Positions 18,294 through 34,627 of a DNA stretch of 64,000 bases are shown here, piece by piece. The DNA is from Candidatus Limnocylindrales bacterium (GTDB lineage Bacteria > Chloroflexota > Limnocylindria > Limnocylindrales > CSP1-4). The position numbers and the translations under genes were made by a program. Below the pieces are notes generated by a model, which worked only from the letters and a program-made list of their open reading frames with translations, was not told where the DNA came from and did no database searches. The stretch spans positions 15,012-79,011 of the forward strand of contig DASSMQ010000006.1 in NCBI GenBank assembly GCA_035688805.1, given 5' to 3'. Positions within the stretch are counted from its first letter, which is position 1, and every line of letters starts with the position of its first letter.

Positions 18294-21200
18294 TCAGCCC
18301 CCGTTCACCGTCCGGCCAACGCCCTCCGGCGGTCGTGCCCGCCCGCCGATCGACGCCAGGCGGGTCGCGACGCGGGCCGCCACCAGCCGTCGCGCATGGC
18401 GCCGCCGCAGGGTGGCGGCGACCACCGACAAGGCACCGACCCCGGTCAACCCGAGCAGGCTCGCGCCGGCACCCGGCAGGAGTCCCGGGTCCGCCCCGAA
18501 CCCCGCCACCTGCATCTCGGGCGCGGAGCGCTCGCCCGTCGTGCCGATGGCGGCGGTGCCAGCCTCCGGTGAGCTGGCGGGCGTCGGGTTTCCCAGCCCG
18601 TCCAGGCCGCTGCCGAGGACGATCGTCGAGGGGTCGTCGACCACGACGACCGTCTGGCCGTCCTCGTCGCGACGCACTCGGCCGACGACGTTGATGGCGT
18701 CGCGTGGCTCGATCAGCCCGAGCCAGCCGGCGGCCTCCCCGGTCAGGACGATCGACCCGACGGACGTGCCGTCGTCCAGTCGGAAGCCGGTGGGCCGCAG
18801 CTCCACCACCAACCCGCCGACCCGCACGGTCGCGCCGAGAAGCGCCTCCAGGTCGGCCAGGTCGGCATCGGCCACGGTCCGACCGACACCCGGGGCTCCC
18901 GATGACAGGACCGGACCCTCGGTCGAGGTCACGGCGACGCCGCTGTCACCCCCGGAGCGACGATCGCTCGCCCGCGGCACGCTCGTCACGTGCACGTCCG
19001 CCGAGCCCCTCGGCAGCACCGCTGGCCGTCGGTCCGTCGCACTCGGATAGGCCGGGCGGACGATCCCGACGATCTCGGCGGTCCCGCCGGCGCCGAGCAC
19101 CGTGCTGGGAATCGCGGCACCGGGCTGGCCGATCACGACGAGGGACTGCGCGCCGCTGATCACCTCCGCGCGCCAGCGGTCGCCGAGCTTGTGGACCGCA
19201 TCGACCCGGCCCGCGATCGATACGAGGCGCCACGTATGCGCGGCCCCGAGGGCGCCGGCCACGCGGAGTGGCGCCGGGATCGATGCCGAGCCGAGGCGGT
19301 CGAGGCTGGTCGCCCGCAGGCGCGGAGCGCCGTAGGCCGATCCGATCCGGCCGACCGCCCGGATCCTCGACCCGACCCCCGGGGCCGACGCGGTCTTGGG
19401 CACGAGCACTTCGATCGCGCCACTCGGGTCCTGGACGACGATCCGTCGGCCCGTCGAATCGAGCAAGGTGGCCGGCGCGGTCACGACCGCCTCGATCGCG
19501 ACATCGCGATCGGTGACCCGCCGGGCGGCCGCGATGGATAGCACGGTCGGAGTGCCGCCGGTCGTGGTCGATCCATTCGGCTTGGGCTTCGGGGTCGGCG
19601 TCGGGGCGTGACTCGGTGACGGGGTCGGCGTCGGCGCAGGAACCGTGAGCACGACGTCTGCAGGATCCCGGGCCCAGATCCGATAGCCGTCCGGCTGGTC
19701 CTTCTTCGACGCGCGCTGGCCCGCGATGCCGGTGACCCGGTACCGGGCCCATAGGTCGAAGGCCGAGGTCCCCAGCCCGCTCGAAGCGTCGGTCATCACC
19801 CGGACTCGCGTGCCGTCCGAGGTCTCGATCGTGACCGTGATGTCGTTGCTCGTCGACTTCACCGGCCGGACGACCACGAGACCGTCGAAGCGGACGAGCT
19901 TCGCCTCGGACGACTCGTCCGGACCACTCGGGGGAACGACCGCCGGCTCCGGCAGGACGCCAACGCCCTCGACGTGCAGGTCGCTGGCGAGGGGTCGGAT
20001 CTCGGTCTGCCCGTACGGATCGGCGAGCGGACCACGGACCCACACGACCTGGCCACGACTGGGTGCCGGCAGCTCGGCGGGGAGTCGCACGATCAGCGCG
20101 CCGGTCGCATCCTGGACCGGGAACAAGGCAGGCGTCCCCACCCGGCCGGGCTCGGCCGTGACGACGCCACGGATCGCGACGCTCGTGCCGACCGGCATCG
20201 TCCGGGCCGTCCCGATGGCCATCGCTTCGGCGGGCGGCGCCGACGTGGCGGTCGGGGTCGGGATCGGGGTCGGGGTTACGGTCGGGGTCGCGGTCATGTC
20301 GGCAGTCGGCGTGGGCTCGGGCGTCGCGGTAGGGTCCTCGGTCGGCGTGGTAGATGGGGCCGAGGTCGGGGAAGGCGCAGGCGTCGACGTCGGCACGGGG
20401 GTCGAGGTCGGCAGGGCGAGCTGCAGGTCGCCCGGCGCCGTGACATAGAGCCGATAGCCGCCGGTGCCGGTCCCGGAGCTGTCGCGCTGCCCGAGCGGGC
20501 CGACCGCGGTGACCATGGTCCCTTGCGAAACAGGCCTGCCCGCAACGGCCGTCGGCGTGACGACCACCCGGACGGGTCCGGAACCGTCGTCGATCGAGAA
20601 GGCCGTCCCGTCGGCGAGGGCCTCGTCGGCGCCCGTGACCGAACCCTGCGCCTCGAGCCGAGTACCTTCGAGCAGCTCGGTTGCGCCGCCGGTCGTCGTG
20701 CCGAGGGCTGGCGGGACACCAGGGTTGCCATCAACCATCACCGCACCCTGGGTGATGCGCAGCGTTCGCTGGGCATAGCGAGAATCGACCTCGCCGTGCA
20801 CGTGGATGGCAGTACCCGCAGCGATCGGGTCGACCACCACCGCGTCAAGGTAGAGGGCGATCCCACCGGTCGCGTCCTGGACGAAGGCAGTCCGACCGGC
20901 CTCGAGCGCGCCGAGGTCCGTGGTCAGGACGCCTGAGATCGTGACGACGGATCCATCGGGCAAGGCGCGGGCGGCAACGATGGACGTCGTGGGCGGAGGC
21001 GTCGGCGTCGGTGCCGGGGAGACGGTCGGGACTGGCGTGGGCTCCGGCGTGGGCGGCATGGTCGGCTCCGGCGTGGGCGGCACGGTCGGCTCCGGCGTTG
21101 GCGCCGGGGTGGGCGGCACGGTCGGCTCCGGCGTGGGCGGCACGGTCGGCTCCGGCGTCGGCGCCGGGCTGGGCGGCGCGGTCGGCTCGGGCATCGGCGC

Positions 21201-21965
21201 CGGGGTGGGCTCGATCGTCGGCACCGGCGACGCAGTCGGACCGGGGGTGGCCGTCGCCGTCGGACTGGGCGACAGCGTCGGCACGGCGGTCGGCGTGGCC
21301 GTCGGCGTCGGGCTCGGGCTCGCGACGGGGGCAGGGATCGGCGGTGACGCTACATCCTGCGGTCCCGGCGTCGCCGACACGAACCAATCAGCGCCATTGG
21401 CGTTCGTGTCGATGGCGTTGCCGAGGACTCCACCAGGGCGCCGTTCGAGGCTGGATCCCGCGGGTGGCGCGGCAGCCGCCGTCCCCTCGACGAAGGCGTT
21501 GGTCGCATCACCCCAGCCGATCGCGTCGATCACCGAACCACCGACCACGCGCAGCGCGACCGACCCTCCGGTCGCGGCGAAACCGCCCGAGTACGTCGCA
21601 TCGCCGAACCCGACGTAGGAGCCAGCGCCATTGACGATGAGCGTCCGCTGTCCGGGACCAAGGATCGTCGACGTCGACCAGGTCGCCTTGCGCGTGACCG
21701 TCGAGCCGGTCGACGTCGCGTACACGACCTCGAGCCCGACCAGATCGGCAGGACCCGTACCCTGATTGGCGATCTCGACGAACTCGTCCGATGCGCTCGA
21801 GCCGCCGGTCTGGATCTCCGACACGACGAGCGTGGATACCGGCCACGCGGCCGACGCCGCGAGTGCGACGTCCCCCAGCCGTGCGCTGTGTGTGGGTCCG
21901 CTCGACAGGCAGACGGCGACGACGAGGGCGAGCGCGGTGGTCCCCGCGCGCCGGGCGCGTTGCAT
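18294..21965 (-). CDS. secreted lamin-tail-domain (LTD) cell-surface protein with three OB-like repeat domains, Pro/Thr-rich linkers and C-terminal membrane anchor/sorting-like signal
   Basis: Signal peptide, then the LTD motif VSEIQTGGSSASDEFVEIANQGTGPADLVGLEV. Three ~100-aa repeats start A..LP.G..V.I.GV.T. There are (PTVPPTPE)n linkers. The C-terminus is LLPGAGASLLGLTGVGALSVVAATLRRRHARR. This is the domain layout of ExeM/NucH-type proteins, but no nuclease domain is seen. Confidence 0.7.
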   Translation of the reverse strand: MQRARRAGTTALALVVAVCLSSGPTHSARLGDVALAASAAWPVSTLVVSEIQTGGSSASDEFVEIANQGTGPADLVGLEVVYATSTGSTVTRKATWSTSTILGPGQRTLIVNGAGSYVGFGDATYSGGFAATGGSVALRVVGGSVIDAIGWGDATNAFVEGTAAAAPPAGSSLERRPGGVLGNAIDTNANGADWFVSATPGPQDVASPPIPAPVASPSPTPTATPTAVPTLSPSPTATATPGPTASPVPTIEPTPAPMPEPTAPPSPAPTPEPTVPPTPEPTVPPTPAPTPEPTVPPTPEPTMPPTPEPTPVPTVSPAPTPTPPPTTSIVAARALPDGSVVTISGVLTTDLGALEAGRTAFVQDATGGIALYLDAVVVDPIAAGTAIHVHGEVDSRYAQRTLRITQGAVMVDGNPGVPPALGTTTGGATELLEGTRLEAQGSVTGADEALADGTAFSIDDGSGPVRVVVTPTAVAGRPVSQGTMVTAVGPLGQRDSSGTGTGGYRLYVTAPGDLQLALPTSTPVPTSTPAPSPTSAPSTTPTEDPTATPEPTPTADMTATPTVTPTPIPTPTATSAPPAEAMAIGTARTMPVGTSVAIRGVVTAEPGRVGTPALFPVQDATGALIVRLPAELPAPSRGQVVWVRGPLADPYGQTEIRPLASDLHVEGVGVLPEPAVVPPSGPDESSEAKLVRFDGLVVVRPVKSTSNDITVTIETSDGTRVRVMTDASSGLGTSAFDLWARYRVTGIAGQRASKKDQPDGYRIWARDPADVVLTVPAPTPTPSPSHAPTPTPKPKPNGSTTTGGTPTVLSIAAARRVTDRDVAIEAVVTAPATLLDSTGRRIVVQDPSGAIEVLVPKTASAPGVGSRIRAVGRIGSAYGAPRLRATSLDRLGSASIPAPLRVAGALGAAHTWRLVSIAGRVDAVHKLGDRWRAEVISGAQSLVVIGQPGAAIPSTVLGAGGTAEIVGIVRPAYPSATDRRPAVLPRGSADVHVTSVPRASDRRSGGDSGVAVTSTEGPVLSSGAPGVGRTVADADLADLEALLGATVRVGGLVVELRPTGFRLDDGTSVGSIVLTGEAAGWLGLIEPRDAINVVGRVRRDEDGQTVVVVDDPSTIVLGSGLDGLGNPTPASSPEAGTAAIGTTGERSAPEMQVAGFGADPGLLPGAGASLLGLTGVGALSVVAATLRRRHARRLVAARVATRLASIGGRARPPEGVGRTVNGG
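21019..21230. repeat. about 8 tandem degenerate 24-bp repeats (ggtcggctccggcgtgggcggcac) encoding the PTVPPTPE linker
   Basis: Read directly inside the LTD gene. Confidence 0.7.
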
Positions 21966-27114: not shown

Positions 27115-27130
27115 TAGAACGCATGTTCTA
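27115..27130. promoter_or_regulatory. LexA-type SOS box TAGAACgcatGTTCTA (perfect palindrome, GAAC-N4-GTTC core)
   Basis: Read directly. It sits in the divergent region 43 bp from the dnaE2 start and 57 bp from the GH18 gene start. Confidence 0.75.
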
Positions 27131-27186: not shown

Positions 27187-28725
27187 ATGGGCTTACCTGA
27201 CCGGGTGCGATCGACCCGTCACCGTCGCCATGCCGCCTGGTCTCGCCTCGTCCTCACCCTGACCGCCGCGGTCACGCTCTTGGCCGGGATCGCGGGCCCG
27301 ATCCCCGCTGTCCGGGCCGCGGACATCCGACCGCGGATCACCGGGATCGCGCCCCTGACCCACGAGGTCTACGGGTATCTCCCCTACTGGCGCCTGGATG
27401 CCGGCACGGTCGACCGGCTGCACTACGACCTCGTGTCGACCATCGCGTTCTTCGGCCTCGGGATCCTCGGGACGGGGGCGATCGACACGTCCTGGATCGG
27501 CTATCGGGCGTACATCGGCGACGACGCGGCGGCGGTCACCAATGCCGCCCACGACCACGGGGTTCGGGTCGTTCCCACGTTCCAGCTGTTCGATTCGGCG
27601 ACCGGCGCGCCCAAGATGACGGCGTTCCTCGGCAGTCGGTCGGCGCAGGACCGGTTCATCGGCGAGGCGCTCGACCTCATGGCCGCACGGAGCGCCGACG
27701 GTGCCGGGCTCGACTTCGAACCGGTCGGCGCCCTGGCCGCGCGCGCCTCGGAGTACGTCGCCTTCGTGGCCCGGTTCCGGGGCGCGATGAAGGCCCGCTT
27801 CCCGGGAGCCACGCTGGTGACCGCGACCTCGGCTGGGGCGACCCAGGAGCTCGTCCAGGGTGTCGCCCCATACGTCGATCATCAGATGGTGATGACCTAC
27901 AACTACCGCTCCTCCGGCTCGACGATCGCCGGCGCGGTTGCCCCGCTCGATCACGCGACGAGGAACGTCAAGAAGCACATCACCCGGATGCTGGGCTGGG
28001 TGCCGGCACGCTCCTTGCTGCTCGGCGAGCCCTATTACGGATACGACTGGCCGGTCACCAGCGCCATCCCGAACGCGACGGTCCAGTCGGACAAGTCGAC
28101 CTATGGCCCCGTCCGGAGCGTCACCTACGCCAGTGCCCGCGATTTCCTGGCCGCGCACCCGAGTGTCGTCCGGCGCTACGACTCTCTCGAGGGGAGCGCC
28201 TTCTACTGGTACTACGACAGCACGAAGCGGACCTACCGCGAAGCCTATTTCGACGATGAGCGGAGCCTCGCCGCGAAGGACGACTACGCGATCGCCACCG
28301 GCCTTGGCGGGATCGGCATCTGGACGCTCGACAACGACCGCGGCTACCGGCAGCTGTGGGACGTCCTCCGTTCGAAGTTCTACGCCCCGGTCCTGAGCAT
28401 GTCGGTCCGGGCGTCGGTCAGCGACCTGACCCGGGTATCCGGGGTCGTGTCCGTGGTCGTCCATGCCGGAGCCACGAATACGGGGACCGTGCCGCTGACC
28501 GGATCGCTGCGCTGGGCGATCCGCGACCCAGGTGGCCGAGTCGTGGCCAGCGGTCATTGGCCGACCACCGTCGTCTACCCTGGCCGGAGCACGAGTCACG
28601 CCGTCCGTGCCGCCCTCGGGCTGGCCACCTCCCTGCCAGCCGGCACCTACCACCTTCGGGTGCGGTTCGTGACGTCGACGAAGGCCTACGGGCCGCCGGA
28701 CGTGGCCTTCCGCCAGCCGTACTGA
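27187..28725 (+). CDS. secreted glycoside hydrolase family 18 (chitinase-like) protein
   Basis: Signal peptide ending AVRA-AD. GH18 catalytic-region motif DGAGLDFEP (DxxDxDxE with the middle Asp replaced by Gly). 512 aa. Confidence 0.65.
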   Translation: MGLPDRVRSTRHRRHAAWSRLVLTLTAAVTLLAGIAGPIPAVRAADIRPRITGIAPLTHEVYGYLPYWRLDAGTVDRLHYDLVSTIAFFGLGILGTGAIDTSWIGYRAYIGDDAAAVTNAAHDHGVRVVPTFQLFDSATGAPKMTAFLGSRSAQDRFIGEALDLMAARSADGAGLDFEPVGALAARASEYVAFVARFRGAMKARFPGATLVTATSAGATQELVQGVAPYVDHQMVMTYNYRSSGSTIAGAVAPLDHATRNVKKHITRMLGWVPARSLLLGEPYYGYDWPVTSAIPNATVQSDKSTYGPVRSVTYASARDFLAAHPSVVRRYDSLEGSAFYWYYDSTKRTYREAYFDDERSLAAKDDYAIATGLGGIGIWTLDNDRGYRQLWDVLRSKFYAPVLSMSVRASVSDLTRVSGVVSVVVHAGATNTGTVPLTGSLRWAIRDPGGRVVASGHWPTTVVYPGRSTSHAVRAALGLATSLPAGTYHLRVRFVTSTKAYGPPDVAFRQPY

Positions 28726-28800
28726 CGGGCCCTCCCACGACGGGACCATCGATCCCGCCCACCCGTGCAACAACTCGCCGCGCTCCGGCGTCTCTTGGCC

Positions 28801-28944
28801 ATGCACGCTCCCAGCCACCTCGATCGCCCGCTTCGACCGGCCGCTGCGGCCGCGTTCCGGACGGCCCTCGCGGTGGTGGTGGCGTCGCTGCTGATCCTCG
28901 TCGTCCTCCCCGCGATGCTCGCGGTCCAGGCGACGACGATCTAG
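28801..28944 (+). CDS. small hydrophobic peptide, 47 aa, single TM (not in ORF track)
   Basis: ATG...TAG translates MHAPSHLDRPLRPAAAAAFRTALAVVVASLLILVVLPAMLAVQATTI. Confidence 0.3.
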   Translation: MHAPSHLDRPLRPAAAAAFRTALAVVVASLLILVVLPAMLAVQATTI

Positions 28945-29050
28945 CACCAACCGACGTCTCGGCGCCTGGGGGCTCGGGACGATCGTCGGCGATCGACTGC
29001 GATAGCCGATCCGCCGACCTGCCGGATCGCTGGTGAGCGAGGATCCGGCC

Positions 29051-29085
29051 ACAGGACCCCGTCGCTGGGGGCGACGGGGTCCTGT
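29051..29085 (+). terminator. 15-bp perfect-stem hairpin (ACAGGACCCCGTCGC-tgggg-GCGACGGGGTCCTGT), followed by 14-bp palindrome GGGCCGATCGGCCC at 29093..29106
   Basis: Read directly. It lies between the first small peptide and the lipoprotein gene. Confidence 0.55.
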
Positions 29086-29130
29086 CACGTCCGGGGGCCG
29101 ATCGGCCCGCAGCCCGTAGACTCATCCGAC

Positions 29131-29670
29131 ATGACATCGCGAACCCGCCGCCTCCTGATGACGATCGTGACGATGGCACTTCTGGGCGGGTGTGGCGGCA
29201 CGTCGCCCGGCAGCCCCGGACCGTCGACTGCCGCGACGGCGACCGCGGCCGCTTCGACGCCGGCCGGGGGACCGAGCACCAGCGCATCGGCCGAACCGAC
29301 CGCCACGACCCCGCGTGCCGGTCCCGCGGTGGGTCAGACCGACACCGACTGGGGCCGGATCTGGGACGCCGTCCCGACCGATTTCCCGCGGTTCCCAGGA
29401 TCGAAGGTCGCCGATGACACGGGCGAGGCGCCGGTCAGCGCCCGGTTCGCGGTCGACGGCGGCGATCCCAAGGCGATGGCCGCCTGGATGCAGTCGGCGA
29501 TGGAGACGGCCGCGTACAGTACGGAGGGCCTCAACGGGCCCCTCGAGGATGGCAGCATGGTCCTCGAATCGGTCGGGGATGGCGGCTGTCGCATCCAGAC
29601 GACGATCGCCCCGCTCGGCGGGACGGTCTTCGTGACGATCCGGTACGGCGCCGCCTGCCCGCTGCACTGA
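29131..29670 (+). CDS. hypothetical lipoprotein
   Basis: Signal with lipobox MALLGGC; 179 aa; no recognised domain. Confidence 0.55.
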   Translation: MTSRTRRLLMTIVTMALLGGCGGTSPGSPGPSTAATATAAASTPAGGPSTSASAEPTATTPRAGPAVGQTDTDWGRIWDAVPTDFPRFPGSKVADDTGEAPVSARFAVDGGDPKAMAAWMQSAMETAAYSTEGLNGPLEDGSMVLESVGDGGCRIQTTIAPLGGTVFVTIRYGAACPLH

Positions 29671-29691
29671 CCACAGGAGCATCGATCGCGC

Positions 29692-29799
29692 ATGCAGCCC
29701 CGCTCCACCGACTTCCTTGGTGCCGCGCTCCTGGCCATCGTCCTGATCGGGCTGGTGGTGATCCTGTTCGTCGGCAATATCCCGGCGGCCACCGCCTGA
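29692..29799 (+). CDS. small hydrophobic peptide, 35 aa, single TM (not in ORF track)
   Basis: MQPRSTDFLGAALLAIVLIGLVVILFVGNIPAATA. AGGAG sits 12 nt upstream, and the ATG is 21 bp after the lipoprotein stop. Confidence 0.4.
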   Translation: MQPRSTDFLGAALLAIVLIGLVVILFVGNIPAATA

Positions 29800-29904
29800 A
29801 TCCGGTAGCTGCGCGCGGTTCTCGTCGCGCGTTGTGCTCGCCCCGCCGCTATGCTGTGGCTGGATCGACCGGGACTTCGGTCCGGACAGGGGGAACGCCG
29901 CTCC

Positions 29905-30009
29905 ATGCAATCGGCACGACCGCGTGATCTGGGTGTCCTCGTCCTCGCGATGGGGGTCCTGCTCGTTCTGTTCGTGGTGAGCCTGACGCTCGGGTCGCCG
30001 TTGCGCTGA
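29905..30009 (+). CDS. small hydrophobic peptide, 34 aa, single TM, paralog-like of the preceding one (not in ORF track)
   Basis: MQSARPRDLGVLVLAMGVLLVLFVVSLTLGSPLR shares the MQ..R.D(F/L)LG..LLA..L.GL.V.LFV pattern with the peptide at 29692..29799. Confidence 0.4.
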   Translation: MQSARPRDLGVLVLAMGVLLVLFVVSLTLGSPLR

Positions 30010-30028
30010 GTCCGGTCCGGCACGGACG

Positions 30029-30286
30029 TCAGTCGTACAGACGTTCGATATGCCAGGTGCCGGCGATCCGGTCGAGATAGACGAGCGCGAGCCAGCGTTC
30101 GCCCACGACCTTCGCGTACTCGCGGGCGATCGGATCGCGCCACCACGACTCATCGACCCGCCAGCGGTTGCACACCTCGACCGCCTCGCGACGCCCGTTC
30201 CAGCGGATGGCGATGAGCCGTCCATCGCCATCGAGCTCGACGTCGATGCGCGGATGCTCGCGCAGGAGGCGGGTCATGCCGGCCAT
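30029..30286 (-). CDS. hypothetical small protein (about 82-85 aa) translationally coupled to imuB stop
   Basis: M(AGM)TRLLREHPRIDVELDGDGRLIAIRWNGRREAVEVCNRWRVDESWWRDPIAREYAKVVGERWLALVYLDRIAGTWHIERLYD. An alternative ATG at 30275..30277 overlaps the imuB TGA (ATGA). The part of the track ORF upstream of this overlaps imuB. Confidence 0.5.
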   Translation of the reverse strand: MAGMTRLLREHPRIDVELDGDGRLIAIRWNGRREAVEVCNRWRVDESWWRDPIAREYAKVVGERWLALVYLDRIAGTWHIERLYD

Positions 30287-31548
30287 CCGTCGCGCCCGTC
30301 GTCGGCGAGCCCGACTGAGCGCCACGCCCAGCGTGCTTCCGCCAGCGGCGCCTCCGGGTCGGTGATGGCGACCCGGCGGATGCGATCCTCCCCGTAGGTC
30401 AGCGCCAGCCTCGCCAGCTGCCACCCGAGTCGGGCCGTCCGGGCGGCCTGGGGCACGAACAACGGCAGTTGTTGGCCCGCCGCCGGGGTCGTGCCGCGCA
30501 GTTCCAGGTCGATCCGCTGGACCGCTGCCGGCGGCGGCTGGCGCTCGAGGCGCGCGAACAGCAGACGCTCGACGGCTTCGGGGTCCGCGGTGGGTTCCGG
30601 GAAGCGCTGCTCGACCTCCATCCGCGGCGACGTACCGACCGGCGCGAACGCAAGGTCCAGTTCCAGCGTCAGCACTGCCCGATCCGCGGCGAGCCCTCGA
30701 CCGGTGAGCTGGGCGGCCAGCGCCGCCACTAGGCGATGGAGGACGAACCGGAGCGGCTCGAGCTCCTCGACCGGGGGTTCGATGGGCAGGGCGAGGGCCA
30801 GGCGCTCGGTCGCGTGGCGAGCCCCGAACGGCTCGGTCTCCTCGCCTCGAGCACGAGCATGGAGCCGCGCGCCCTCCTCGCCGAACCGGGCGATCAGCGC
30901 GGATCGCGGGAGGACCGCCACCGCGCCGATCCGACGCAGTCCGAAGCGGGTCAGGCGTGCCCGGACATCGGGGTCGGTGGTGAGCAGCCCGGACGGACGG
31001 TCGGCCAGGAACGCCGCCTCACCCCCGGGTGGGACGATGATCGGACCGTCCGGGGTGGCGGCCAGCGCCGCGACCGAGGCGGCGAACCGGGTGCCGGCGA
31101 TCCCGGCGCGCGGTGACGGCTCCCCGGGGAGGGCGCCTCGCAGCGCCGCACCGGCCCGCTCGATCAGTCGGGGCTCGGCCCCCCACAGCGGCTCGAGCCC
31201 ATCGATCCCGACCTCGAAGAACCCGAATGAGGCCGCCGATGGGTCGCTGGTCCCGGCCAGGCTCGGGCTGGATCGCCCGAGCGCCTCGAACACGGCCTCG
31301 GCAGCTCCCCGATCCGCATCGGGATCGGGGTCGATGAAGGTCGCCTCAGGGACGAGTCGGTGGGCGCTCCCGAGCGGCATCCCGCGTCGGACGCCGAGCG
31401 CCCGAGCTGTCGGATCGGCGTCGAGGACCGGACCCGGATCCCAGGGTCGCCCGCCCAGCACGAGCGGGCCGGTCGGGAAGGGCTCGGAGCGTCGAGCCCG
31501 GGCCAGGTGGAGCGGCAGGTGCGGCACGAACAGGTGCAGACGTCGCAT
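30274..31548 (-). CDS. imuB: ImuB (Y-family polymerase-like, catalytically inactive DinB homolog)
   Basis: Internal Met MRRLHLFVPHLPLHLARAR...GVRRGMPLGSAHRLVP matches the ImuB/DinB N-terminus. The upstream 193 codons of the track ORF overlap imuA. Confidence 0.85.
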   Translation of the reverse strand: MRRLHLFVPHLPLHLARARRSEPFPTGPLVLGGRPWDPGPVLDADPTARALGVRRGMPLGSAHRLVPEATFIDPDPDADRGAAEAVFEALGRSSPSLAGTSDPSAASFGFFEVGIDGLEPLWGAEPRLIERAGAALRGALPGEPSPRAGIAGTRFAASVAALAATPDGPIIVPPGGEAAFLADRPSGLLTTDPDVRARLTRFGLRRIGAVAVLPRSALIARFGEEGARLHARARGEETEPFGARHATERLALALPIEPPVEELEPLRFVLHRLVAALAAQLTGRGLAADRAVLTLELDLAFAPVGTSPRMEVEQRFPEPTADPEAVERLLFARLERQPPPAAVQRIDLELRGTTPAAGQQLPLFVPQAARTARLGWQLARLALTYGEDRIRRVAITDPEAPLAEARWAWRSVGLADDGRDGWPA

Positions 31549-32719
31549 GGTCGGTCTCGCGATCGGGGGCCTCATGAACGGGGGCGTGGACGGGAGGCGG
31601 CGGAGCGGCCGACAGCCGGAGGTCGACCGGATCGGCCCAGCGGGTGGGTTCCTTGCTTCCCGCGTACGAGCTTGCAGGCACGGCAAGTACCACGGGCGAG
31701 GACCGCGTACGGGCCTCATCTCCGAGCGATCCCTTGCCTTCGGGGCAAGGAACGGCGGCGATGGCCCGGCTATCGGTCGACGGCACCTCATCACTTGCGA
31801 GGACCGCAAGTTCCACGACCATCTCGCCTGGCCGTGCAGCGGTACTTGCCGTGGAGGCAAGCCCTTGCGCCGCGGGCACGTCGAGCGCGTCGAACAGGAG
31901 GGCGTCGTCGGCGAGGCACGCATCGCGCTCACCGCCCTCCGCGTAGAGGATCCGCAGGATGGCTCGGCGTCCCGGCGGACCGTGGCGGTTGTGGGCGACG
32001 AGCGCCTCGGTCCGCTGCCCGACGACGTCCCGGCCGAGACGGACCCAGGACCGCCGAGCGAGCTCCAGCCGGATGCCGGTCGATTGGTCGACCGCGGTCG
32101 TGAGGCCACCGCCCGACCCGGGCGCATCGAGGATCAGGAGCAGCGTCTCCGCCCGCCGGGCGAGAGCGGCGAGTCGATGGAGGCGATCGGCGATCTTCGC
32201 CGGCGTGTCGGTCCTGGCCAGACGGCCACCGGGCAGGTCGATGACGAGCAGGTCGACCGAGCGGCCGGCCAGCAGGCTGCCGGCGATGCCCAGGCCCTCG
32301 TCCAGGCTGGCCGGGGTGATGACCACGAGCCATTCGAGCCGGATGCCGCGGCTGACGGCTTCGACCGGGTCGAAGCTGCGCGACAGGTCCAGCCACGCCA
32401 CGACCGAGCCCTGGGCCTGGGCCTCCGCGGCGACCCGCAGGCTGAGGGTCGTCCGCCCGCTCGAGCCTTCCCCCCGGATCGCGACGCTGGCCGAGGTCGG
32501 CAACCCGCCCGGTCCGAGGATCGCGTCGAGGGCGGCGAAGCCGGTGTGGATGATCCGGTCGGCGGGCCGTGGGTCGGCGGAGGGTGACGGTCCCGGCATC
32601 TCTGTGGGGACCGGTGCCGGAGCCAGGGCCAGGGCGCCGACCACGCTCGGAGCTGCAGCACCCCAGCGGGCCCGGAGGCCCGCGACGGCGGCATCCACAT
32701 CACCCCGACCGGTCGACAT
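31346..32719 (-). CDS. imuA: ImuA (RecA/SulA-like cell-division-inhibitor fold protein of the mutasome), unusually long
   Basis: IHTGFAALDAILGPGGLPTSASVAIRGEGSSGRTTLSLRVAAEAQAQG...LLVIDLPGG RecA-like core. An SOS box lies 14 bp upstream. The ORF runs 203 nt into imuB. Confidence 0.75.
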   Translation of the reverse strand: MSTGRGDVDAAVAGLRARWGAAAPSVVGALALAPAPVPTEMPGPSPSADPRPADRIIHTGFAALDAILGPGGLPTSASVAIRGEGSSGRTTLSLRVAAEAQAQGSVVAWLDLSRSFDPVEAVSRGIRLEWLVVITPASLDEGLGIAGSLLAGRSVDLLVIDLPGGRLARTDTPAKIADRLHRLAALARRAETLLLILDAPGSGGGLTTAVDQSTGIRLELARRSWVRLGRDVVGQRTEALVAHNRHGPPGRRAILRILYAEGGERDACLADDALLFDALDVPAAQGLASTASTAARPGEMVVELAVLASDEVPSTDSRAIAAVPCPEGKGSLGDEARTRSSPVVLAVPASSYAGSKEPTRWADPVDLRLSAAPPPPVHAPVHEAPDRETDHATSAPVRAAPAAPPGPGSTLRALPDRPARAGRATLGSGSGPRRRSDSSGARRPTRDAARERPPTRP

Positions 32720-32732
32720 CGGACGTCGATAG

Positions 32733-32748
32733 TAGAACAGATGTTCTA
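32733..32748. promoter_or_regulatory. LexA-type SOS box TAGAACagatGTTCTA (perfect palindrome)
   Basis: Read directly. It is 14 bp upstream of the imuA start and 60 bp upstream of the divergent response-regulator gene. Confidence 0.75.
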
Positions 32749-32807: not shown

Positions 32808-33566
32808 ATGCTGCCGATGCCGACCTCGACCTCCGACCCCGCGGTCCCGACCGCGCCGATCCTCGTCGTCGACGACGACGCGAAGATCGTCCGGCTCGTG
32901 CGGACCTACCTCGAACGGGACGGGTTCTCGGTCGTGACCGCCGCCGACGGCCCGGCCGCGCTCGCCGCGATCGAGGCCCATGCGCCCGCCCTCGTCGTGC
33001 TGGACCTGATGCTCCCCGAACTGGACGGGCGGGCCGTCATCCGGGCCGTCCGCCGCGACGACGAGGCCGGCCGCACGCCGATCCTCGTCCTGTCCGCGCG
33101 TAGCTCGACCATCGACCGGATCGCCGGACTCGAGGATGGGGCCGACGACTACCTGCCCAAGCCGTTCTCACCCGCCGAGCTCGTGCTCCGGGTGAAGTCG
33201 ATCCTGCGCCGTGCGGCGCCGGCCGGGGCAGGCCTGGCGGATGCCCGACGACCATCGACTCCGCTGCTCCGCCACGCCGATCTCACCGTCGACCCGTCCC
33301 GCCACGAGGTCCGCCGCGGCGACGCGGCCATCGACCTCACCCGGGTCGAGTTCAAGCTGCTGTCGACGATCCTGGCGGCGGATGGCCGCGTCCTGTCGCG
33401 CGACCAGCTGCTCGACGCCGTGTACGGCCACGAGGCGGCCGACGTCCTCGACCGGACCATCGACGTGCATGTCCGCCGATTGCGCGACAAGCTCGACGAT
33501 GACCCGGAAGCGCCGCGCTATGTCCAGACCGTGCGCGGCATCGGGTATCGCGCCGCCCGGACGTGA
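32808..33566 (+). CDS. OmpR-family two-component response regulator
   Basis: ILVVDDDAKIVRL receiver domain with D...LDLMLPELDG, plus a winged-helix trans_reg_C (VQTVRGIGYR). Confidence 0.9.
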   Translation: MLPMPTSTSDPAVPTAPILVVDDDAKIVRLVRTYLERDGFSVVTAADGPAALAAIEAHAPALVVLDLMLPELDGRAVIRAVRRDDEAGRTPILVLSARSSTIDRIAGLEDGADDYLPKPFSPAELVLRVKSILRRAAPAGAGLADARRPSTPLLRHADLTVDPSRHEVRRGDAAIDLTRVEFKLLSTILAADGRVLSRDQLLDAVYGHEAADVLDRTIDVHVRRLRDKLDDDPEAPRYVQTVRGIGYRAART

Positions 33567-34627
33567 TCGGTCGAGGTATCGCCGCACGCATCGCCCTGGC
33601 GGCCATCGCGAGCGCCGCGGTCGGCCTGGTCATCCTCGCCATCGGTGTGGCCGTGGTCGGTGGCGGGGTCTTCACCGAGTTGATGATGAAGGCCGGCGAC
33701 TCGGCCGAGCACGCTCGACGGATGTACGACGACTCGGTGGTCACGGTCGTGGTCGCGGCCTCCGCCCTGGCCGTGCTGGCGAGCCTCGGTCTAGCCGTCG
33801 CCCTCGCCCGGATGCTGGCCCGGCCGCTCGACGAGATCAGTGGCGCCGCTCGACGGATCGCCGACGGTGACTACGCGGCCCGCGTCCCGCGCGAGGGGCC
33901 CGAGGAGCTGGCCAGCCTGGCCGACTCATTCAACCAGATGGCCGCTTCGCTCGAGCGTCAGGAGCAGATGCGGCGCGACTTCATCGCCAACGCAGCCCAT
34001 GAGCTACGGACGCCGTTGACCAATCTGCAGGGCTACCTCGAAGCGCTGCGCGACGGCGTCATCGTGGCCGATGCCGCGACCTACGAGTCGCTCCACGAGG
34101 AGGCCGATCGCCTCGTCCGCCTGTCGCGCTCGCTCGACGCGCTCGCGGAGGGCGACGCCGACACGAGCCCGGCGACACGCATCGAGCTCGATCTCGCGGC
34201 TGCGATCCGCTCAGCGATCGACCTCGCCGCGCCGGCGATCGAACGCGCCGGGCTGCGCCTGGAGACCGGCCTTCCCCCCTCGCTGCCGGCCCGGGCGGAT
34301 CCAGACCGGGTCGCCCAGGTCCTCGCCAACCTCCTCTCGAACGCCATCCGGTACACGGCACGCGGCGGCCTGGTCACGGTCCGCGCCGAACGGCGTCCAG
34401 CCGATGTCCTGGTCTCGGTGACGAATACCGGCGACTCGATCCCGGCCGACGACCTCGATCGGGTATTCGAGCGGTTCTACCGGGTCGAGAAGTCACGCGA
34501 TCGCGCTCGGGGAGGCGCCGGCATCGGGCTGGCCATCGTGAAGCAGCTGGTCGAATCGGGCGGCGGTCGAGTCGGCGCCGAATCGGCTGAAGGTCAGACG
34601 CGCTTCTGGTTCAGCATCCCGGCCTGA
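33563..34627 (+). CDS. sensor histidine kinase (HAMP-HisKA-HATPase)
   Basis: H-box AAHELRTPLTNLQGYLEAL; N/G boxes (LLSNAIRYT, GGAGIGLAIVKQLV); a GTGA overlap with the RR stop. Confidence 0.9.
   Translation: MIGRGIAARIALAAIASAAVGLVILAIGVAVVGGGVFTELMMKAGDSAEHARRMYDDSVVTVVVAASALAVLASLGLAVALARMLARPLDEISGAARRIADGDYAARVPREGPEELASLADSFNQMAASLERQEQMRRDFIANAAHELRTPLTNLQGYLEALRDGVIVADAATYESLHEEADRLVRLSRSLDALAEGDADTSPATRIELDLAAAIRSAIDLAAPAIERAGLRLETGLPPSLPARADPDRVAQVLANLLSNAIRYTARGGLVTVRAERRPADVLVSVTNTGDSIPADDLDRVFERFYRVEKSRDRARGGAGIGLAIVKQLVESGGGRVGAESAEGQTRFWFSIPA

What the first reader, a model, noticed from the sequence alone, without database searches (positions are those of the whole stretch)
28801..30009. 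Three unannotated small single-TM peptides, two of them paralogous, all below the ORF-track size cutoff
The three peptides are MHAPSHLDRPLRPAAAAAFRTALAVVVASLLILVVLPAMLAVQATTI (47 aa), MQPRSTDFLGAALLAIVLIGLVVILFVGNIPAATA (35 aa) and MQSARPRDLGVLVLAMGVLLVLFVVSLTLGSPLR (34 aa). Each has an ATG and a short polar N-terminus followed by one hydrophobic helix. The last two share an MQ..R.D(F/L)LG..LLA..L.GL.V.LFV pattern and sit in tandem after the lipoprotein, the first 21 bp from its stop with an AGGAG RBS. Small SOS-associated membrane peptides (TisB-like type I toxins) are a known functional class but their sequences are lineage-specific, so this family may be undescribed.
Basis: seen in the sequence. 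Interest (0 to 1): 0.6.

Follow-up and report, generated by a model that had tools for sequence, protein, structure and literature searches.

The report
Three conserved small membrane-protein genes
The three tiny open reading frames are real, conserved genes for one-helix membrane proteins of the soil and freshwater bacterial class Limnocylindria, always sitting with a lipoprotein gene inside the DNA-damage mutagenesis locus, but nothing supports the idea that they are TisB-like toxins and their function remains unknown.

Summary
All three ORFs are present exactly as described: pep1 28801-28944 (47 aa), pep2 29692-29799 (35 aa), pep3 29905-30009 (34 aa).

They are not chance ORFs. I compared the window with 80 Limnocylindria (Chloroflexota) genome loci.
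- **Presence:** pep3 is in 78 of 81, pep1 in 73 of 81, pep2 in 28 of 81. Each is single-copy and on the same strand.
- **Order:** dnaE2(-) | pep1 | lipoprotein | [pep2] | pep3 | small ORF-imuB-imuA'(-).
- **Selection:** length and start position are conserved, and pN/pS is lowest in the annotated frame (0.41 pep3, 0.56 pep2, 0.60 pep1).

No Pfam, NCBIfam, PADLOC or PDB relative exists. Public gene calls name them 'hypothetical protein'. Paralogy of pep2 and pep3 is not statistically supported.

The two perfect LexA boxes in the window serve dnaE2 and imuA'. Likely expression signals:
- **pep1:** a conserved ECF-sigma-like promoter placed for a leaderless mRNA.
- **pep2:** a conserved Shine-Dalgarno just after the lipoprotein gene.
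- **pep3:** its own -10-like element, a 5'UTR hairpin and a Shine-Dalgarno.

Class-wide, single-copy, syntenic inheritance argues against type I toxins. A previously undescribed, covariation-supported RNA structure of about 95 nt follows pep1.

Verdict: new families of a known kind, moderately interesting.

The parts
27117..27128 (.). Perfect LexA (Cheo-type) box GAACGCATGTTC, extended palindrome TAGAAC-N4-GTTCTA. It lies 45 nt upstream of the dnaE2 start. The reverse strand reads GTTCTATACT, a -10-like hexamer for dnaE2.
   Evidence: One of only two perfect matches in 64 kb. The same box is upstream of dnaE2 in 72 of 73 loci that hold the dnaE2 start. In loci without the GH18 gene it lies 59-61 nt upstream of the pep1 ATG in most cases.
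28767..28793 (+). ECF-sigma-like promoter of pep1: GCAAC, 17 nt, CGTCT. It ends 7 nt before the ATG, which implies a leaderless mRNA.
   Evidence: This is the only match to G[AC]AAC-N16-18-CGTCT in the window (0.43 expected). Of 73 matches in 587 kb of related loci, 36 lie within 15 nt upstream of a located pep1 start, 6 lie upstream of pep3, and nearly all the others lie between dnaE2 and the lipoprotein gene, where pep1 sits. The spacer is 17 nt in 55 of 56 cases and the distance to the start is 7 nt in 54 of 56. The motif stays with pep1 in loci where GH18 separates it from the LexA box. The AAC / CGT(C) consensus is taken from PMC5758882. Function is inferred, not shown.
28801..28944 (+). 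pep1, a 47-aa single-pass membrane protein (MHAPSHLDRPLRP...LLILVVLPAMLAVQATTI). The N-terminus is net positive, so the predicted topology is N-in.
   Evidence: An HMM hit is found in 73 of 81 loci. Forms of 47 and 41 aa differ by in-frame indels. pN/pS is 0.60 in frame, against 0.96 and 1.48 off frame. More than 1,100 public protein clusters exist, those with a name nearly all 'hypothetical protein', with no Pfam assignment.
28954..29046 (+). Conserved structured RNA element of about 95 nt, directly 3' of pep1. It has six short helices and invariant loops GCCUGGGGGCU and GGUGAGC. It is not in Rfam.
   Evidence: Alignment A8 holds 54 sequences. 96.5% of cells are paired, against 19-53% when the partners are slid. 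The covariation score is 0.251 against at most 0.082, and 0 of 500 shuffles reach it. Many G-U pairs point to the + strand. There is no Rfam match. The element stays with pep1 although the distance from pep1 to the lipoprotein gene ranges from 163 to over 3,300 nt. It occurs once in the window.
29054..29082 (+). Terminator-like hairpin GGACCCCGTCGC-TGGGG-GCGACGGGGTCC, the likely 3' end of the pep1 transcript.
   Evidence: The same hairpin lies about 110 nt after the pep1 stop in at least 55 loci. It is the only copy in the window. The transcript from ATG to hairpin folds with z = -4.1 against shuffles. It has no U-tract, so the consensus terminator scan did not list it.
29131..29670 (+). Lipoprotein gene (179 aa, lipobox LLGGC, Pro/Ala/Thr-rich linker, about 110-aa globular domain with conserved Cys153 and Cys176). 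It anchors the island.
   Evidence: 500 homologues have E <= 0.001 and none has a Pfam family. The AlphaFold2 domain has pLDDT above 90. Fold matches are only weak, to the envelope proteins Flpp3, PsbP, DcrB and LpqN (E >= 6.5e-3).
29675..29799 (+). pep2: Shine-Dalgarno AGGAG (29675-29679) and a 35-aa ORF (29692-29799). It is probably co-transcribed with the lipoprotein gene.
   Evidence: Present in 28 of 81 loci, always 10-60 nt after the lipoprotein stop. A GGAGC(C) motif sits roughly 8-13 nt upstream of the start in most loci. pN/pS is 0.56 in frame, against 0.76 and 2.67 off frame. A near-identical ENA contig calls it as a 35-aa gene.
29811..29831 (+). G+C-rich hairpin GCGCGCG-gttctcgt-CGCGCG between pep2 and pep3, a possible end of the lipoprotein-pep2 transcript.
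   Evidence: Read from the sequence. Relatives carry inverted repeats at the same place, such as GTTGC-N6-GCAAC. No function was tested.
29850..29893 (+). pep3 expression signals: -10-like TATGCT (29850-29855), 5'UTR hairpin GGAUCGA/UCGGUCC (29862-29883) and Shine-Dalgarno GGGGG (29889-29893).
   Evidence: TAT.CTG and GGGG are conserved in at least 80% of 71 upstream regions. The hairpin has 74% of cells paired, with C-G to U-A exchanges in 14 sequences, and 0 of 500 shuffles reach the covariation score. Promoter function is inferred.
29905..30009 (+). pep3, a 34-aa single-pass membrane protein (MQSARPRDLGVLVLAMGVLLVLFVVSLTLGSPLR). It is the best conserved of the three.
   Evidence: Present in 78 of 81 loci. 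68 of 71 copies have exactly 34 codons, and the start is ATG, GTG or TTG at the same position. Median dN/dS is 0.285. pN/pS is 0.41 in frame, against 1.15 and 2.73 off frame. Third positions vary even at the invariant P6 and the near-invariant D8 and G30. In a separate search anchored on pep3 itself, every contig that extends far enough on each side has the same neighbours, apart from one lacking the lipoprotein gene. 101 representative clusters match, nearly all 28-91 aa.
30029..32719 (-). Convergent SOS operon: imuA' (31346-32719, RecA-like), imuB (30274 to about 31380, Y-family-like) and a conserved 82-aa ORF (30029-30277). Its stop is 19 nt from the pep3 stop.
   Evidence: Pfam gives RecA and IMS/IMS_C. 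Gene calls in the near-identical contig are 457, 368 and 82 aa. Synteny holds in 77-78 of 80 loci. The small ORF has no Pfam, NCBIfam or PADLOC hit.
32735..32746 (.). Second perfect LexA box GAACAGATGTTC (TAGAAC-N4-GTTCTA), between imuA' and a divergent response-regulator gene.
   Evidence: A box is upstream of imuA' in 62 related loci.

Best explanation
pep1, pep2 and pep3 are three separate families of genuine, translated, bitopic small membrane proteins of 47, 35 and 34 aa. Each has a short, net-positive or neutral N-terminus predicted to face the cytoplasm, one apolar helix of about 21 residues with conserved Gly or Pro, and a tail of 4-7 residues outside. They are specific to the class Limnocylindria.

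Together with a lipoprotein gene they form a small envelope island. It is inherited vertically, wedged on the opposite strand between the LexA-controlled imuA'-imuB operon and dnaE2.

**Shown:** conservation, synteny, frame-specific purifying selection, and absence from curated families.

**Inferred expression:**
- pep1 is made from a leaderless mRNA driven by an ECF-sigma-type (envelope-stress-type) promoter. It carries a conserved structured 3'UTR that ends in a hairpin.
- pep2 is translated from its own Shine-Dalgarno on the lipoprotein transcript.
- pep3 has its own promoter, a 5'UTR stem-loop and a Shine-Dalgarno.

**Inferred mechanism:** like most characterised small bacterial membrane proteins, they probably act as non-toxic accessory or modulatory subunits that bind larger membrane or envelope partners through the helix and the conserved juxtamembrane motif. 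That motif is RPRD-x-G in pep3, PR-xx-D-xx-G in pep2 and RP-x-RP in pep1. They are not pore-forming SOS toxins.
For: **Real genes.** HMM presence is 78, 73 and 28 of 81 loci, single copy, one strand. ORF length, start and stop are conserved. pN/pS is lowest in the annotated frame for all three. pep3 shows textbook three-base periodicity of variation, with synonymous change at invariant residues. Gene callers elsewhere predict them.

**Vertical, syntenic inheritance.** The gene order is the same whether loci were found through the lipoprotein or through pep3.

**Expression signals.**
- G(A/C)AAC-N17-CGTCT-N7-start is nearly exclusive to pep1 and matches the ECF AAC/CGT(C) consensus (PMC5758882).
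- No Shine-Dalgarno precedes pep1.
- A Shine-Dalgarno is conserved before pep2 and before pep3.
- pep3 tolerates ATG, GTG and TTG starts, as expected for Shine-Dalgarno-led initiation.

**Envelope context.** The neighbour is a lipoprotein whose fold weakly resembles the envelope proteins Flpp3, DcrB and LpqN.

**Not SOS-driven.** LexA boxes lie at dnaE2 and imuA' only.
Against: - There is no expression, proteomic or transcription-start data, so translation and promoters are inferred from sequence alone.
- No partner protein is identified, and the 'accessory subunit' mechanism is an argument from analogy.
- No ECF sigma or anti-sigma gene was found among the 20 window genes scanned. The rest of the genome could not be searched.
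- pep1 shows weaker protein-level constraint (pN/pS 0.60). It also has runs of invariant third positions, so part of its conservation is at the RNA or DNA level.
- In most relatives a LexA box lies only about 10 nt upstream of the pep1 -35 element. Some SOS influence on pep1 cannot be excluded.
- The unbroken association with the mutasome locus is itself unexplained by an envelope role.
Confidence: 0.68

Rival explanations
1. SOS-induced type I toxins, like TisB or DinQ. DNA damage would derepress the peptides, which insert into the membrane, dissipate the proton motive force and promote dormancy. An antisense RNA would hold them in check.
For: - The peptides are small and hydrophobic and lie inside the imuA'-imuB-dnaE2 locus.
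- In most relatives a perfect LexA box lies 59-61 nt upstream of the pep1 start.
- pep1 is followed by a highly conserved non-coding RNA region and has nucleotide-level constraint inside the ORF. Type I toxin mRNAs often show this.
- The imuA'-imuB transcript converges on pep3 with a gap of only 19 nt. Its read-through would be antisense to the island.
Against: - Across the 80 relatives, box placement fits dnaE2, whose -10-like hexamer it overlaps.
- pep1 keeps its own ECF-like promoter and loses the box wherever GH18 intervenes, as in this window.
- No box occurs at the lipoprotein, pep2 or pep3.
- The genes are single-copy, class-wide and strictly syntenic, with the lowest pN/pS in the annotated frame.
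- The helices are uniformly apolar and lack the charged, amphipathic face of TisB (my own knowledge of TisB).
- G-U pairs place the conserved RNA structure on the sense strand.
- pep3 has no conserved overlapping element.
- There are no PADLOC hits.
Confidence: 0.08
2. pep1 is mainly part of a regulatory RNA. One version is a dual-function small transcript whose structured 3'UTR acts as an envelope-stress sRNA. The other is a leader or monitoring peptide, in the manner of MifM or SecM, whose translation remodels the downstream structure and terminator.
For: - The roughly 95-nt element and the following hairpin are more conserved than the coding sequence and are supported by covariation.
- The transcript folds unusually stably, with z = -4.1.
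- Third positions are invariant in codons 12-20, 31-34 and 43-48, and the C-terminus Q-A-x-x-I-TAG is invariant in the 47-aa forms.
- The putative ECF promoter recalls sigma-E-dependent sRNAs (my own knowledge).
Against: - The ORF keeps its frame through in-frame indels and has its lowest pN/pS in frame, so the peptide itself is under selection.
- Downstream genes differ between genomes, with unrelated inserts of 0.6-3.3 kb, so no specific gene is gated.
- No target complementarity was found in the window.
- This reading concerns pep1 only and is compatible with pep1 also being a functional protein.
Confidence: 0.15
3. The peptides, and perhaps the lipoprotein, are functional partners of the mutasome. 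For example, they might tether or regulate ImuA'-ImuB-DnaE2 at the membrane, which would explain the unbroken linkage.
For: Linkage to dnaE2, imuB and imuA' holds wherever the contig extends far enough on each side, under two independent anchors. One contig keeps pep1 and pep3 but lacks the lipoprotein gene (L153).
Against: - The peptides are on the opposite strand with separate, non-LexA signals.
- The island tolerates insertion of unrelated genes.
- Conserved gene order within one class can be inheritance alone.
- No precedent is known to me.
Confidence: 0.05
4. The ORFs are chance hydrophobic reading frames on a GC-rich strand.
For: The window is 70.8% G+C and is full of long spurious ORFs in all frames.
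Against: Presence, length, start, stop and frame are conserved across loci whose lipoprotein is only 43-69% identical. Selection is frame-specific.
Confidence: 0.01

Closest known systems
Small bacterial membrane proteins that modulate larger partners (for example AcrZ, MgtS, KdpF, CydX, MgtU)
   Same: They are 30-50 aa with a single apolar helix and a short conserved juxtamembrane motif. They are chromosomal, single-copy, vertically inherited and under purifying selection.
   Different: There is no sequence relationship. The best NCBIfam scores, to MgtU, CbtB and MtrG, are 11-15 bits, far below the cut-offs of 33-64 bits. The genes are not adjacent to a transporter or oxidase operon, and no partner is known.
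TisB/IstR-1 and DinQ/AgrB, the SOS-induced type I toxin-antitoxin systems of E. coli
   Same: The peptides are small and hydrophobic and lie in an SOS-related neighbourhood. pep1 lies next to a LexA box in most relatives and has conserved flanking RNA.
   Different: The promoter architecture shows no LexA control in this window. No antisense RNA is detected. Distribution is class-wide and syntenic rather than patchy. The helices are fully apolar. No homology is detectable.
ECF-sigma envelope-stress regulon members with leaderless or short transcripts (B. subtilis sigma-W/M/X/V targets; sigma-E-dependent small RNAs)
   Same: pep1 has a G(A/C)AAC -35 element and a CGTCT -10 element at fixed spacing, and a small transcript that ends in a hairpin.
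   Different: The sigma factor is unidentified. The spacing is 17 nt, against 16 nt for the sigma-W consensus. There is no experimental start site, and this phylum's promoters are uncharacterised.
The imuA-imuB-dnaE2 mutagenesis cassette under LexA control (Actinobacteria, Proteobacteria)
   Same: The locus has a RecA-like ImuA', a Y-family-like ImuB and DnaE2, with GAAC-N4-GTTC boxes of the Gram-positive type (motif as described in PMC3323433).
   Different: Here the cassette is split. An opposite-strand island (pep1, lipoprotein, pep2, pep3) lies between imuB and dnaE2. dnaE2 has its own box, and an extra conserved 82-aa ORF follows imuB.

Membership tests
Type I toxin (TisB/DinQ-like, SOS-induced) | Small hydrophobic membrane peptide under 60 aa | tested here: met
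   The peptides are 47, 35 and 34 aa, each with one apolar helix.
Type I toxin (TisB/DinQ-like, SOS-induced) | LexA box in the toxin's own promoter | tested here: not met
   In the window the nearest box (27117-27128) is about 1.7 kb from pep1, and pep2 and pep3 have none. In relatives the box is next to pep1 but overlaps the dnaE2 -10-like hexamer, and it is lost wherever GH18 intervenes.
Type I toxin (TisB/DinQ-like, SOS-induced) | Cognate antisense or divergent RNA antitoxin | tested here: inconclusive
   pep3 has no conserved element overlapping it. The conserved RNA beside pep1 has G-U pairs that favour the sense strand. Without RNA-seq, an antisense transcript cannot be excluded.
Type I toxin (TisB/DinQ-like, SOS-induced) | Patchy, often multi-copy or horizontally scattered distribution | tested here: not met
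   One copy per locus, the same position in 160 related loci, and none in viral contigs for the pep1 flank.
Type I toxin (TisB/DinQ-like, SOS-induced) | Toxicity or membrane depolarisation on expression | not testable with these tools
   This needs an experiment.
Any curated protein family (Pfam-A, NCBIfam, PADLOC) or solved structure | Score at or above the family's curated cut-off | tested here: not met
   The best Pfam hits are DUF2970 at 16 bits (cut-off 27) and DUF4492 at 12 bits. The best NCBIfam hits are 11-15 bits. PADLOC gives none. PDB profile searches give E >= 0.68.
Paralogy of pep2 and pep3 | Profile-profile similarity above that of unrelated single-helix peptides | tested here: not met
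   hhalign gives 8.0% probability over 11 columns. The control, pep3 against pep1, gives 8.7%. Cross-HMM scores reach at most 11.4 bits, against 8.3 for the control.
ECF-sigma-dependent promoter (pep1) | AAC in the -35 element and CGT(C) in the -10 element at a fixed spacing of about 16-17 nt | tested here: met
   GAAAC or GCAAC, N17, CGTCT in 56 of 71 loci, with spacer 17 in 55 of 56. The motif is specific to pep1. The consensus is from PMC5758882.
ECF-sigma-dependent promoter (pep1) | A cognate ECF sigma / anti-sigma pair, usually autoregulated from the same motif | tested here: inconclusive
   None was found among the 20 window genes scanned, and the motif occurs only once in the window. 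The rest of the genome is not available here.
Leaderless mRNA (pep1) | Start codon at the transcription start, with no Shine-Dalgarno | tested here: inconclusive
   The start codon is 7 nt after the -10 element in 54 of 56 loci, and no purine-rich Shine-Dalgarno is present. The transcription start is not mapped.
LexA regulon (dnaE2 and imuA' promoters) | GAAC-N4-GTTC palindrome in the promoter region | tested here: met
   Two perfect boxes are in the window, and 134 of 144 perfect boxes in the relatives lie at these two promoters. LexA binding itself was not tested.
Translation-arrest / monitoring leader peptide (MifM, SecM, VemP) | A downstream structure that sequesters the ribosome-binding site of one specific regulated gene | tested here: not met
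   The gene downstream of pep1 varies: the lipoprotein gene at 163-490 nt, or unrelated inserts of up to 3.3 kb.
Rfam RNA families (element 3' of pep1; pep3 leader) | Covariance-model match | tested here: not met
   The window gives no hit at gathering score apart from two tRNAs. Only chance-level hits with E > 3 were found elsewhere in 28700-30100.

The most novel reading that the evidence does not exclude
pep1 together with its conserved structured 3'UTR would be a dual-function, envelope-stress (ECF) driven small RNA and peptide. It sits back to back with the LexA-controlled dnaE2 promoter. The island as a whole (pep1, lipoprotein, pep2, pep3) would couple membrane or envelope state to the activity or expression of the ImuA'-ImuB-DnaE2 mutasome. 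Possible routes are LexA/ECF promoter interplay at the shared 70-nt control region and convergent transcription across pep3. That would be a previously unknown link between envelope stress and SOS mutagenesis, and would include a new class of structured RNA.
Probability: 0.1. Interest if true: 0.75.

Novelty: new member of a known kind. Interest (0 to 1): 0.4.

Why it matters
Small membrane proteins are routinely missed by annotation, and almost none are known from Chloroflexota, an abundant but largely uncultured soil and freshwater phylum.

This work gives three well-supported families with exact start sites, likely expression signals and a fixed genomic address. That makes them usable for annotation, for example as new family models, and for experiments.

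The fixed placement inside the SOS mutagenesis locus, together with the undescribed structured RNA after pep1, gives testable leads on how this class organises its stress responses. The finding does not overturn anything. Conserved small proteins of unknown function are common.

Tried and rejected
- **Chance ORFs.** Rejected by conservation and frame-specific selection.
- **Longer ORF forms** (59-aa pep1, 52-aa pep3). Rejected because the upstream extensions contain stops or shift frame in relatives. The in-frame ATG of the 52-aa form lies inside the conserved -10-like TATGCT.
- **Paralogy of pep2 and pep3.** Not supported.
- **Known families.** Pfam, NCBIfam, PADLOC and PDB sequence searches were all negative.
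- **Rfam.** Nothing for either conserved RNA.
- **Same ECF motif upstream of pep3.** Only 6 of 70 loci fit the strict pattern. pep3 has a different, TATGCT-centred signal.
- **ECF sigma gene nearby.** None was found among the 20 window genes scanned.
- **Lipoprotein function from structure.** Only weak fold matches.
- **The conserved element as leader or riboswitch for the lipoprotein gene.** Rejected because it stays with pep1 while the downstream gene varies.
- **Trans target of the GCCUGGGGGCU loop within the window.** No complementary site was found.
- **RNAalifold on a gappy alignment of the pep3 leader.** It predicted nothing, so the hairpin had to be given by hand.
- **Technical failures.** Two pattern searches failed on syntax.
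- **Viral-contig scan for the pep1 3' element.** No hits.
Full report
**1. Observation**

The window is 70.8% G+C. The three ORFs are present exactly as written:
- pep1, 28801-28944, 47 aa.
- pep2, 29692-29799, 35 aa.
- pep3, 29905-30009, 34 aa.

pep2 begins 21 nt after the lipoprotein stop, and AGGAG lies at 29675-29679. GC3 is 0.90, 0.89 and 0.77, with low GC2, the pattern of real genes in this genome. The genome also carries long spurious ORFs in every frame, so composition alone proves nothing.

**2. Organism and relatives**

The upstream lipoprotein (29131-29670, no Pfam family) has 500 homologues with E <= 0.001. The few that carry a name come from Candidatus Limnocylindria, Chloroflexota. 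An alignment of these (A1) retrieved 80 genome loci whose lipoprotein is 43-69% identical to the window's.

**3. Conservation**

- Pattern searches, and then profile HMMs over six-frame translations, find pep3 in 78 of 81 loci (window included), pep1 in 73 of 81 and pep2 in 28 of 81. Every hit is on the lipoprotein strand, one copy per locus.
- Several loci without pep1 have too little upstream sequence to contain it.
- 68 of 71 pep3 copies have exactly 34 codons, and the start codon is ATG, GTG or TTG at the same position.
- pep1 occurs as 47-aa and 41-aa forms that differ by in-frame indels.
- The longer forms listed by the ORF finder are not conserved. Stop codons precede the pep1 ATG in several relatives. 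The ATG that extends pep3 lies inside a conserved TATGCT and is in frame in only some loci.
- A second scan, anchored on pep3 and run on metagenome contigs, gave 80 more loci. Wherever a contig extends far enough on each side, pep3 lies between the lipoprotein gene and the imuB operon, apart from one contig that lacks the lipoprotein gene.

**4. Selection**

- Nei-Gojobori estimates for pep3 give pN/pS 0.41 and median dN/dS 0.285. For pep2, dN/dS is about 0.3-0.44.
- In a frame control, the annotated frame has the lowest pN/pS for all three:

| ORF | annotated frame | frame 2 | frame 3 |
|---|---|---|---|
| pep3 | 0.41 | 1.15 | 2.73 |
| pep2 | 0.56 | 0.76 | 2.67 |
| pep1 | 0.60 | 0.96 | 1.48 |

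- In pep3, third positions vary at almost every codon, including the invariant Pro6 and the near-invariant Asp8 and Gly30. The constraint is therefore on the protein, and no conserved overlapping element is hidden in the ORF.
- pep1 is different. Codons 12-20, 31-34 and 43-48 have invariant third positions, which indicates additional constraint at the nucleotide level.

**5. Relationship to known families**

- Pfam, NCBIfam and PADLOC give nothing near their cut-offs, and PDB profile searches are negative.
- Public gene calls do exist. More than 1,100 clusters at 90% identity match pep1, mostly 47 aa, and those with a name are nearly all 'hypothetical protein'.
- Fourteen word-sharing clusters match pep3. 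In a library of 1.84 billion proteins, 101 representatives at 50% identity match it, almost all 28-91 aa with the match at the C-terminus.
- A 99%-identical ENA contig calls pep2 (35 aa) and pep3 (34 aa) as genes, but not pep1.
- Paralogy of pep2 and pep3 is not demonstrable. hhalign gives 8% probability, the same as the pep3-versus-pep1 control, and cross-family HMM scores do not exceed the control.
- A PR-x(1-2)-D-x(1-2)-G motif before the helix is common to both families. Much of the rest of the window-level resemblance is not conserved in the pep2 family: its position 2 is variable and LFV is not conserved.

**6. Context**

The conserved order across the class is:

dnaE2(-) | [GH18 in the window and 8 loci] | pep1 | [variable inserts] | lipoprotein | [pep2] | pep3 | 82-aa ORF(-) imuB(-) imuA'(-) | response regulator(+)

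- imuB matches IMS/IMS_C and imuA' matches RecA.
- The window holds only two perfect GAAC-N4-GTTC sites, both extended palindromes TAGAAC-N4-GTTCTA. One is at 27117-27128, upstream of dnaE2. The other is at 32735-32746, upstream of imuA'. This is the LexA motif of Firmicutes and Actinobacteria (PMC3323433). Its use in Chloroflexota is my own recollection.
- In the 80 relatives, 134 of 144 perfect boxes lie at these two promoters, and none lies consistently at the lipoprotein gene, pep2 or pep3.
- The reverse strand of the dnaE2 box reads GTTCTATACT, a -10-like hexamer for dnaE2.
- In loci without GH18 the box lies 59-61 nt upstream of the pep1 ATG in most cases. In this window GH18 separates them by about 1.7 kb.

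**7. Expression signals (inferred)**

*pep1.*
- G(A/C)AAC-N17-CGTCT-N7-start is conserved, with spacer 17 in 55 of 56 cases and distance 7 in 54 of 56.
- The motif occurs 73 times in 587 kb of related loci. 36 copies lie within 15 nt upstream of a located pep1 start, 6 upstream of pep3, and nearly all the rest between dnaE2 and the lipoprotein gene. It occurs once in the window, against 0.43 expected.
- It moves with pep1 in loci that carry GH18.
- It matches the ECF-sigma hallmark of AAC at -35 and CGT(C) at -10 (PMC5758882).
- With no Shine-Dalgarno, it predicts a leaderless mRNA.

*pep2.* A conserved GGAGC(C) lies roughly 8-13 nt upstream in most loci, and the ORF begins 10-60 nt after the lipoprotein stop. 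It is probably co-transcribed with the lipoprotein gene.

*pep3.* It has a conserved TATGCT, a 5'UTR hairpin and a GGGGG Shine-Dalgarno. In the hairpin, 74% of cells are paired, C-G changes to U-A in 14 sequences, and 0 of 500 shuffles reach the covariation score. Only 6 of 70 loci fit the strict pep1-type motif upstream of pep3, so the two genes need not share a regulator.

No ECF sigma gene was found among the 20 window genes scanned.

**8. An unexpected RNA**

- The sequence just 3' of pep1 (window 28954-29046) is more conserved than the coding genes.
- A six-helix consensus on 54 sequences has 96.5% of cells paired, against 19-53% when the partners are slid. The covariation score is 0.251 against at most 0.082, and no shuffle out of 500 reaches it. 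The best-supported helix carries the invariant loop GGUGAGC. One caveat applies: the structure was derived from these same sequences.
- Frequent G-U pairs place the structure on the pep1 strand.
- A nearly invariant hairpin follows, GGACCCCGUCGC...GCGACGGGGUCC (29054-29082). It lies about 110 nt after the pep1 stop in at least 55 loci and occurs once in the window.
- The whole transcript, from ATG to hairpin, folds with z = -4.1.
- Rfam has no match.
- The distance from pep1 to the lipoprotein gene ranges from 163 to over 3,300 nt, with unrelated genes inserted. The element therefore belongs to the pep1 transcript and is not a leader of the lipoprotein gene.

**9. Interpretation**

The best-supported reading is that these are three genuine small bitopic membrane proteins. 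They are new families of a familiar kind, expressed from separate signals within an envelope island that has been inherited inside the SOS mutagenesis locus since the origin of the class. By analogy with characterised small membrane proteins, they most likely act by binding larger membrane or envelope partners. This step is inference.

The type I toxin idea fails on three of the defining features that could be tested:
- There is no LexA control of their own promoters.
- The distribution is not patchy or multi-copy.
- The helices show no sign of amphipathic, pore-forming character.

The antisense-RNA question stays open, because no transcript data are available.

For pep1, a dual-function RNA-plus-peptide reading is a live alternative. 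A functional tie between the island and the mutasome cannot be excluded.

**10. Lipoprotein**

AlphaFold2 gives a confident domain of about 110 residues, with pLDDT above 90. Fold matches are only weak, to the envelope proteins Flpp3, PsbP, DcrB and LpqN, with E >= 6.5e-3. This is consistent with an envelope role but says nothing about mechanism.

Noticed in passing
window 28954-29082 (+): An undescribed structured RNA element of about 95 nt, followed by a nearly invariant hairpin, lies directly after pep1. It is conserved in roughly 55-60 Limnocylindria loci, is supported by covariation and has no Rfam match. It stays with pep1 whatever gene lies downstream.
   Followed up: partly
window 27117-27128 and 32735-32746: These are the only two perfect GAAC-N4-GTTC sites in 64 kb, and both are extended palindromes TAGAAC-N4-GTTCTA. 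They sit upstream of dnaE2 and imuA'. The mutagenesis cassette is therefore split into two LexA-box-bearing units by the opposite-strand island. The imuA' box shares its intergenic region with a divergent OmpR-type response regulator and histidine kinase pair (32808-34627).
   Followed up: partly
window 30029-30277 (-): A conserved 82-aa ORF lies immediately downstream of imuB, and its start overlaps the imuB stop. It is present in 78 of 80 related loci and has no Pfam, NCBIfam or PADLOC hit. It may be an unrecognised fourth component of the mutasome operon.
   Followed up: partly
between pep1 and the lipoprotein gene (window 29083-29130); loci L004, L005, L013, L016, L021, L038, L039, L044, L050, L054: The gap after the pep1 hairpin is an insertion hot-spot. 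Different genomes carry unrelated + strand genes there, 0.6-3.3 kb in length. The GH18-like gene (window 27187-28725) is a similar variable insert between dnaE2 and pep1, present in the window and in 8 of the 80 genome loci.
   Followed up: partly
window 29850-29855 and 29851-30009: The ATG inside the conserved -10-like TATGCT of pep3 is in frame in this window and in some relatives. It creates a spurious N-terminal extension to 50-62 aa, which public gene callers often adopt (P0121-P0130).
   Followed up: yes
window 28801-28944, codons 12-20, 31-34 and 43-48: pep1 has runs of invariant third codon positions and an invariant C-terminus, Q-A-x-x-I-TAG, in the 47-aa forms. This constraint at the nucleotide level is not explained by the protein alone.
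   Followed up: partly
loci L003, L016, L048 (record titles): Three MAGs that carry this strictly Limnocylindria-type locus are labelled Patescibacteria, Acidobacteriota and Saccharimonadales. These are probably binning or labelling errors in the public records.
   Followed up: no
locus L153 (metagenome contig Ga0075435_100015035): This contig keeps dnaE2, pep1, pep3 and the imu operon, but no lipoprotein homologue is detected between pep1 and pep3. The peptides can apparently persist without the lipoprotein gene.
   Followed up: no
window 18294-21965 (-): A large 1,223-aa protein combines a Lamin Tail Domain with OB-fold domains (BOF and tRNA_anti-codon type), just beyond dnaE2. Its function is unclear.
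   Followed up: no
window 29131-29670: The lipoprotein family has invariant residues Cys21 (lipobox), Cys153 and Cys176, and a WGRIWD..P..FPRFPG motif. It has no Pfam family despite hundreds of homologues, so it is a candidate for a new family definition.
   Followed up: partly
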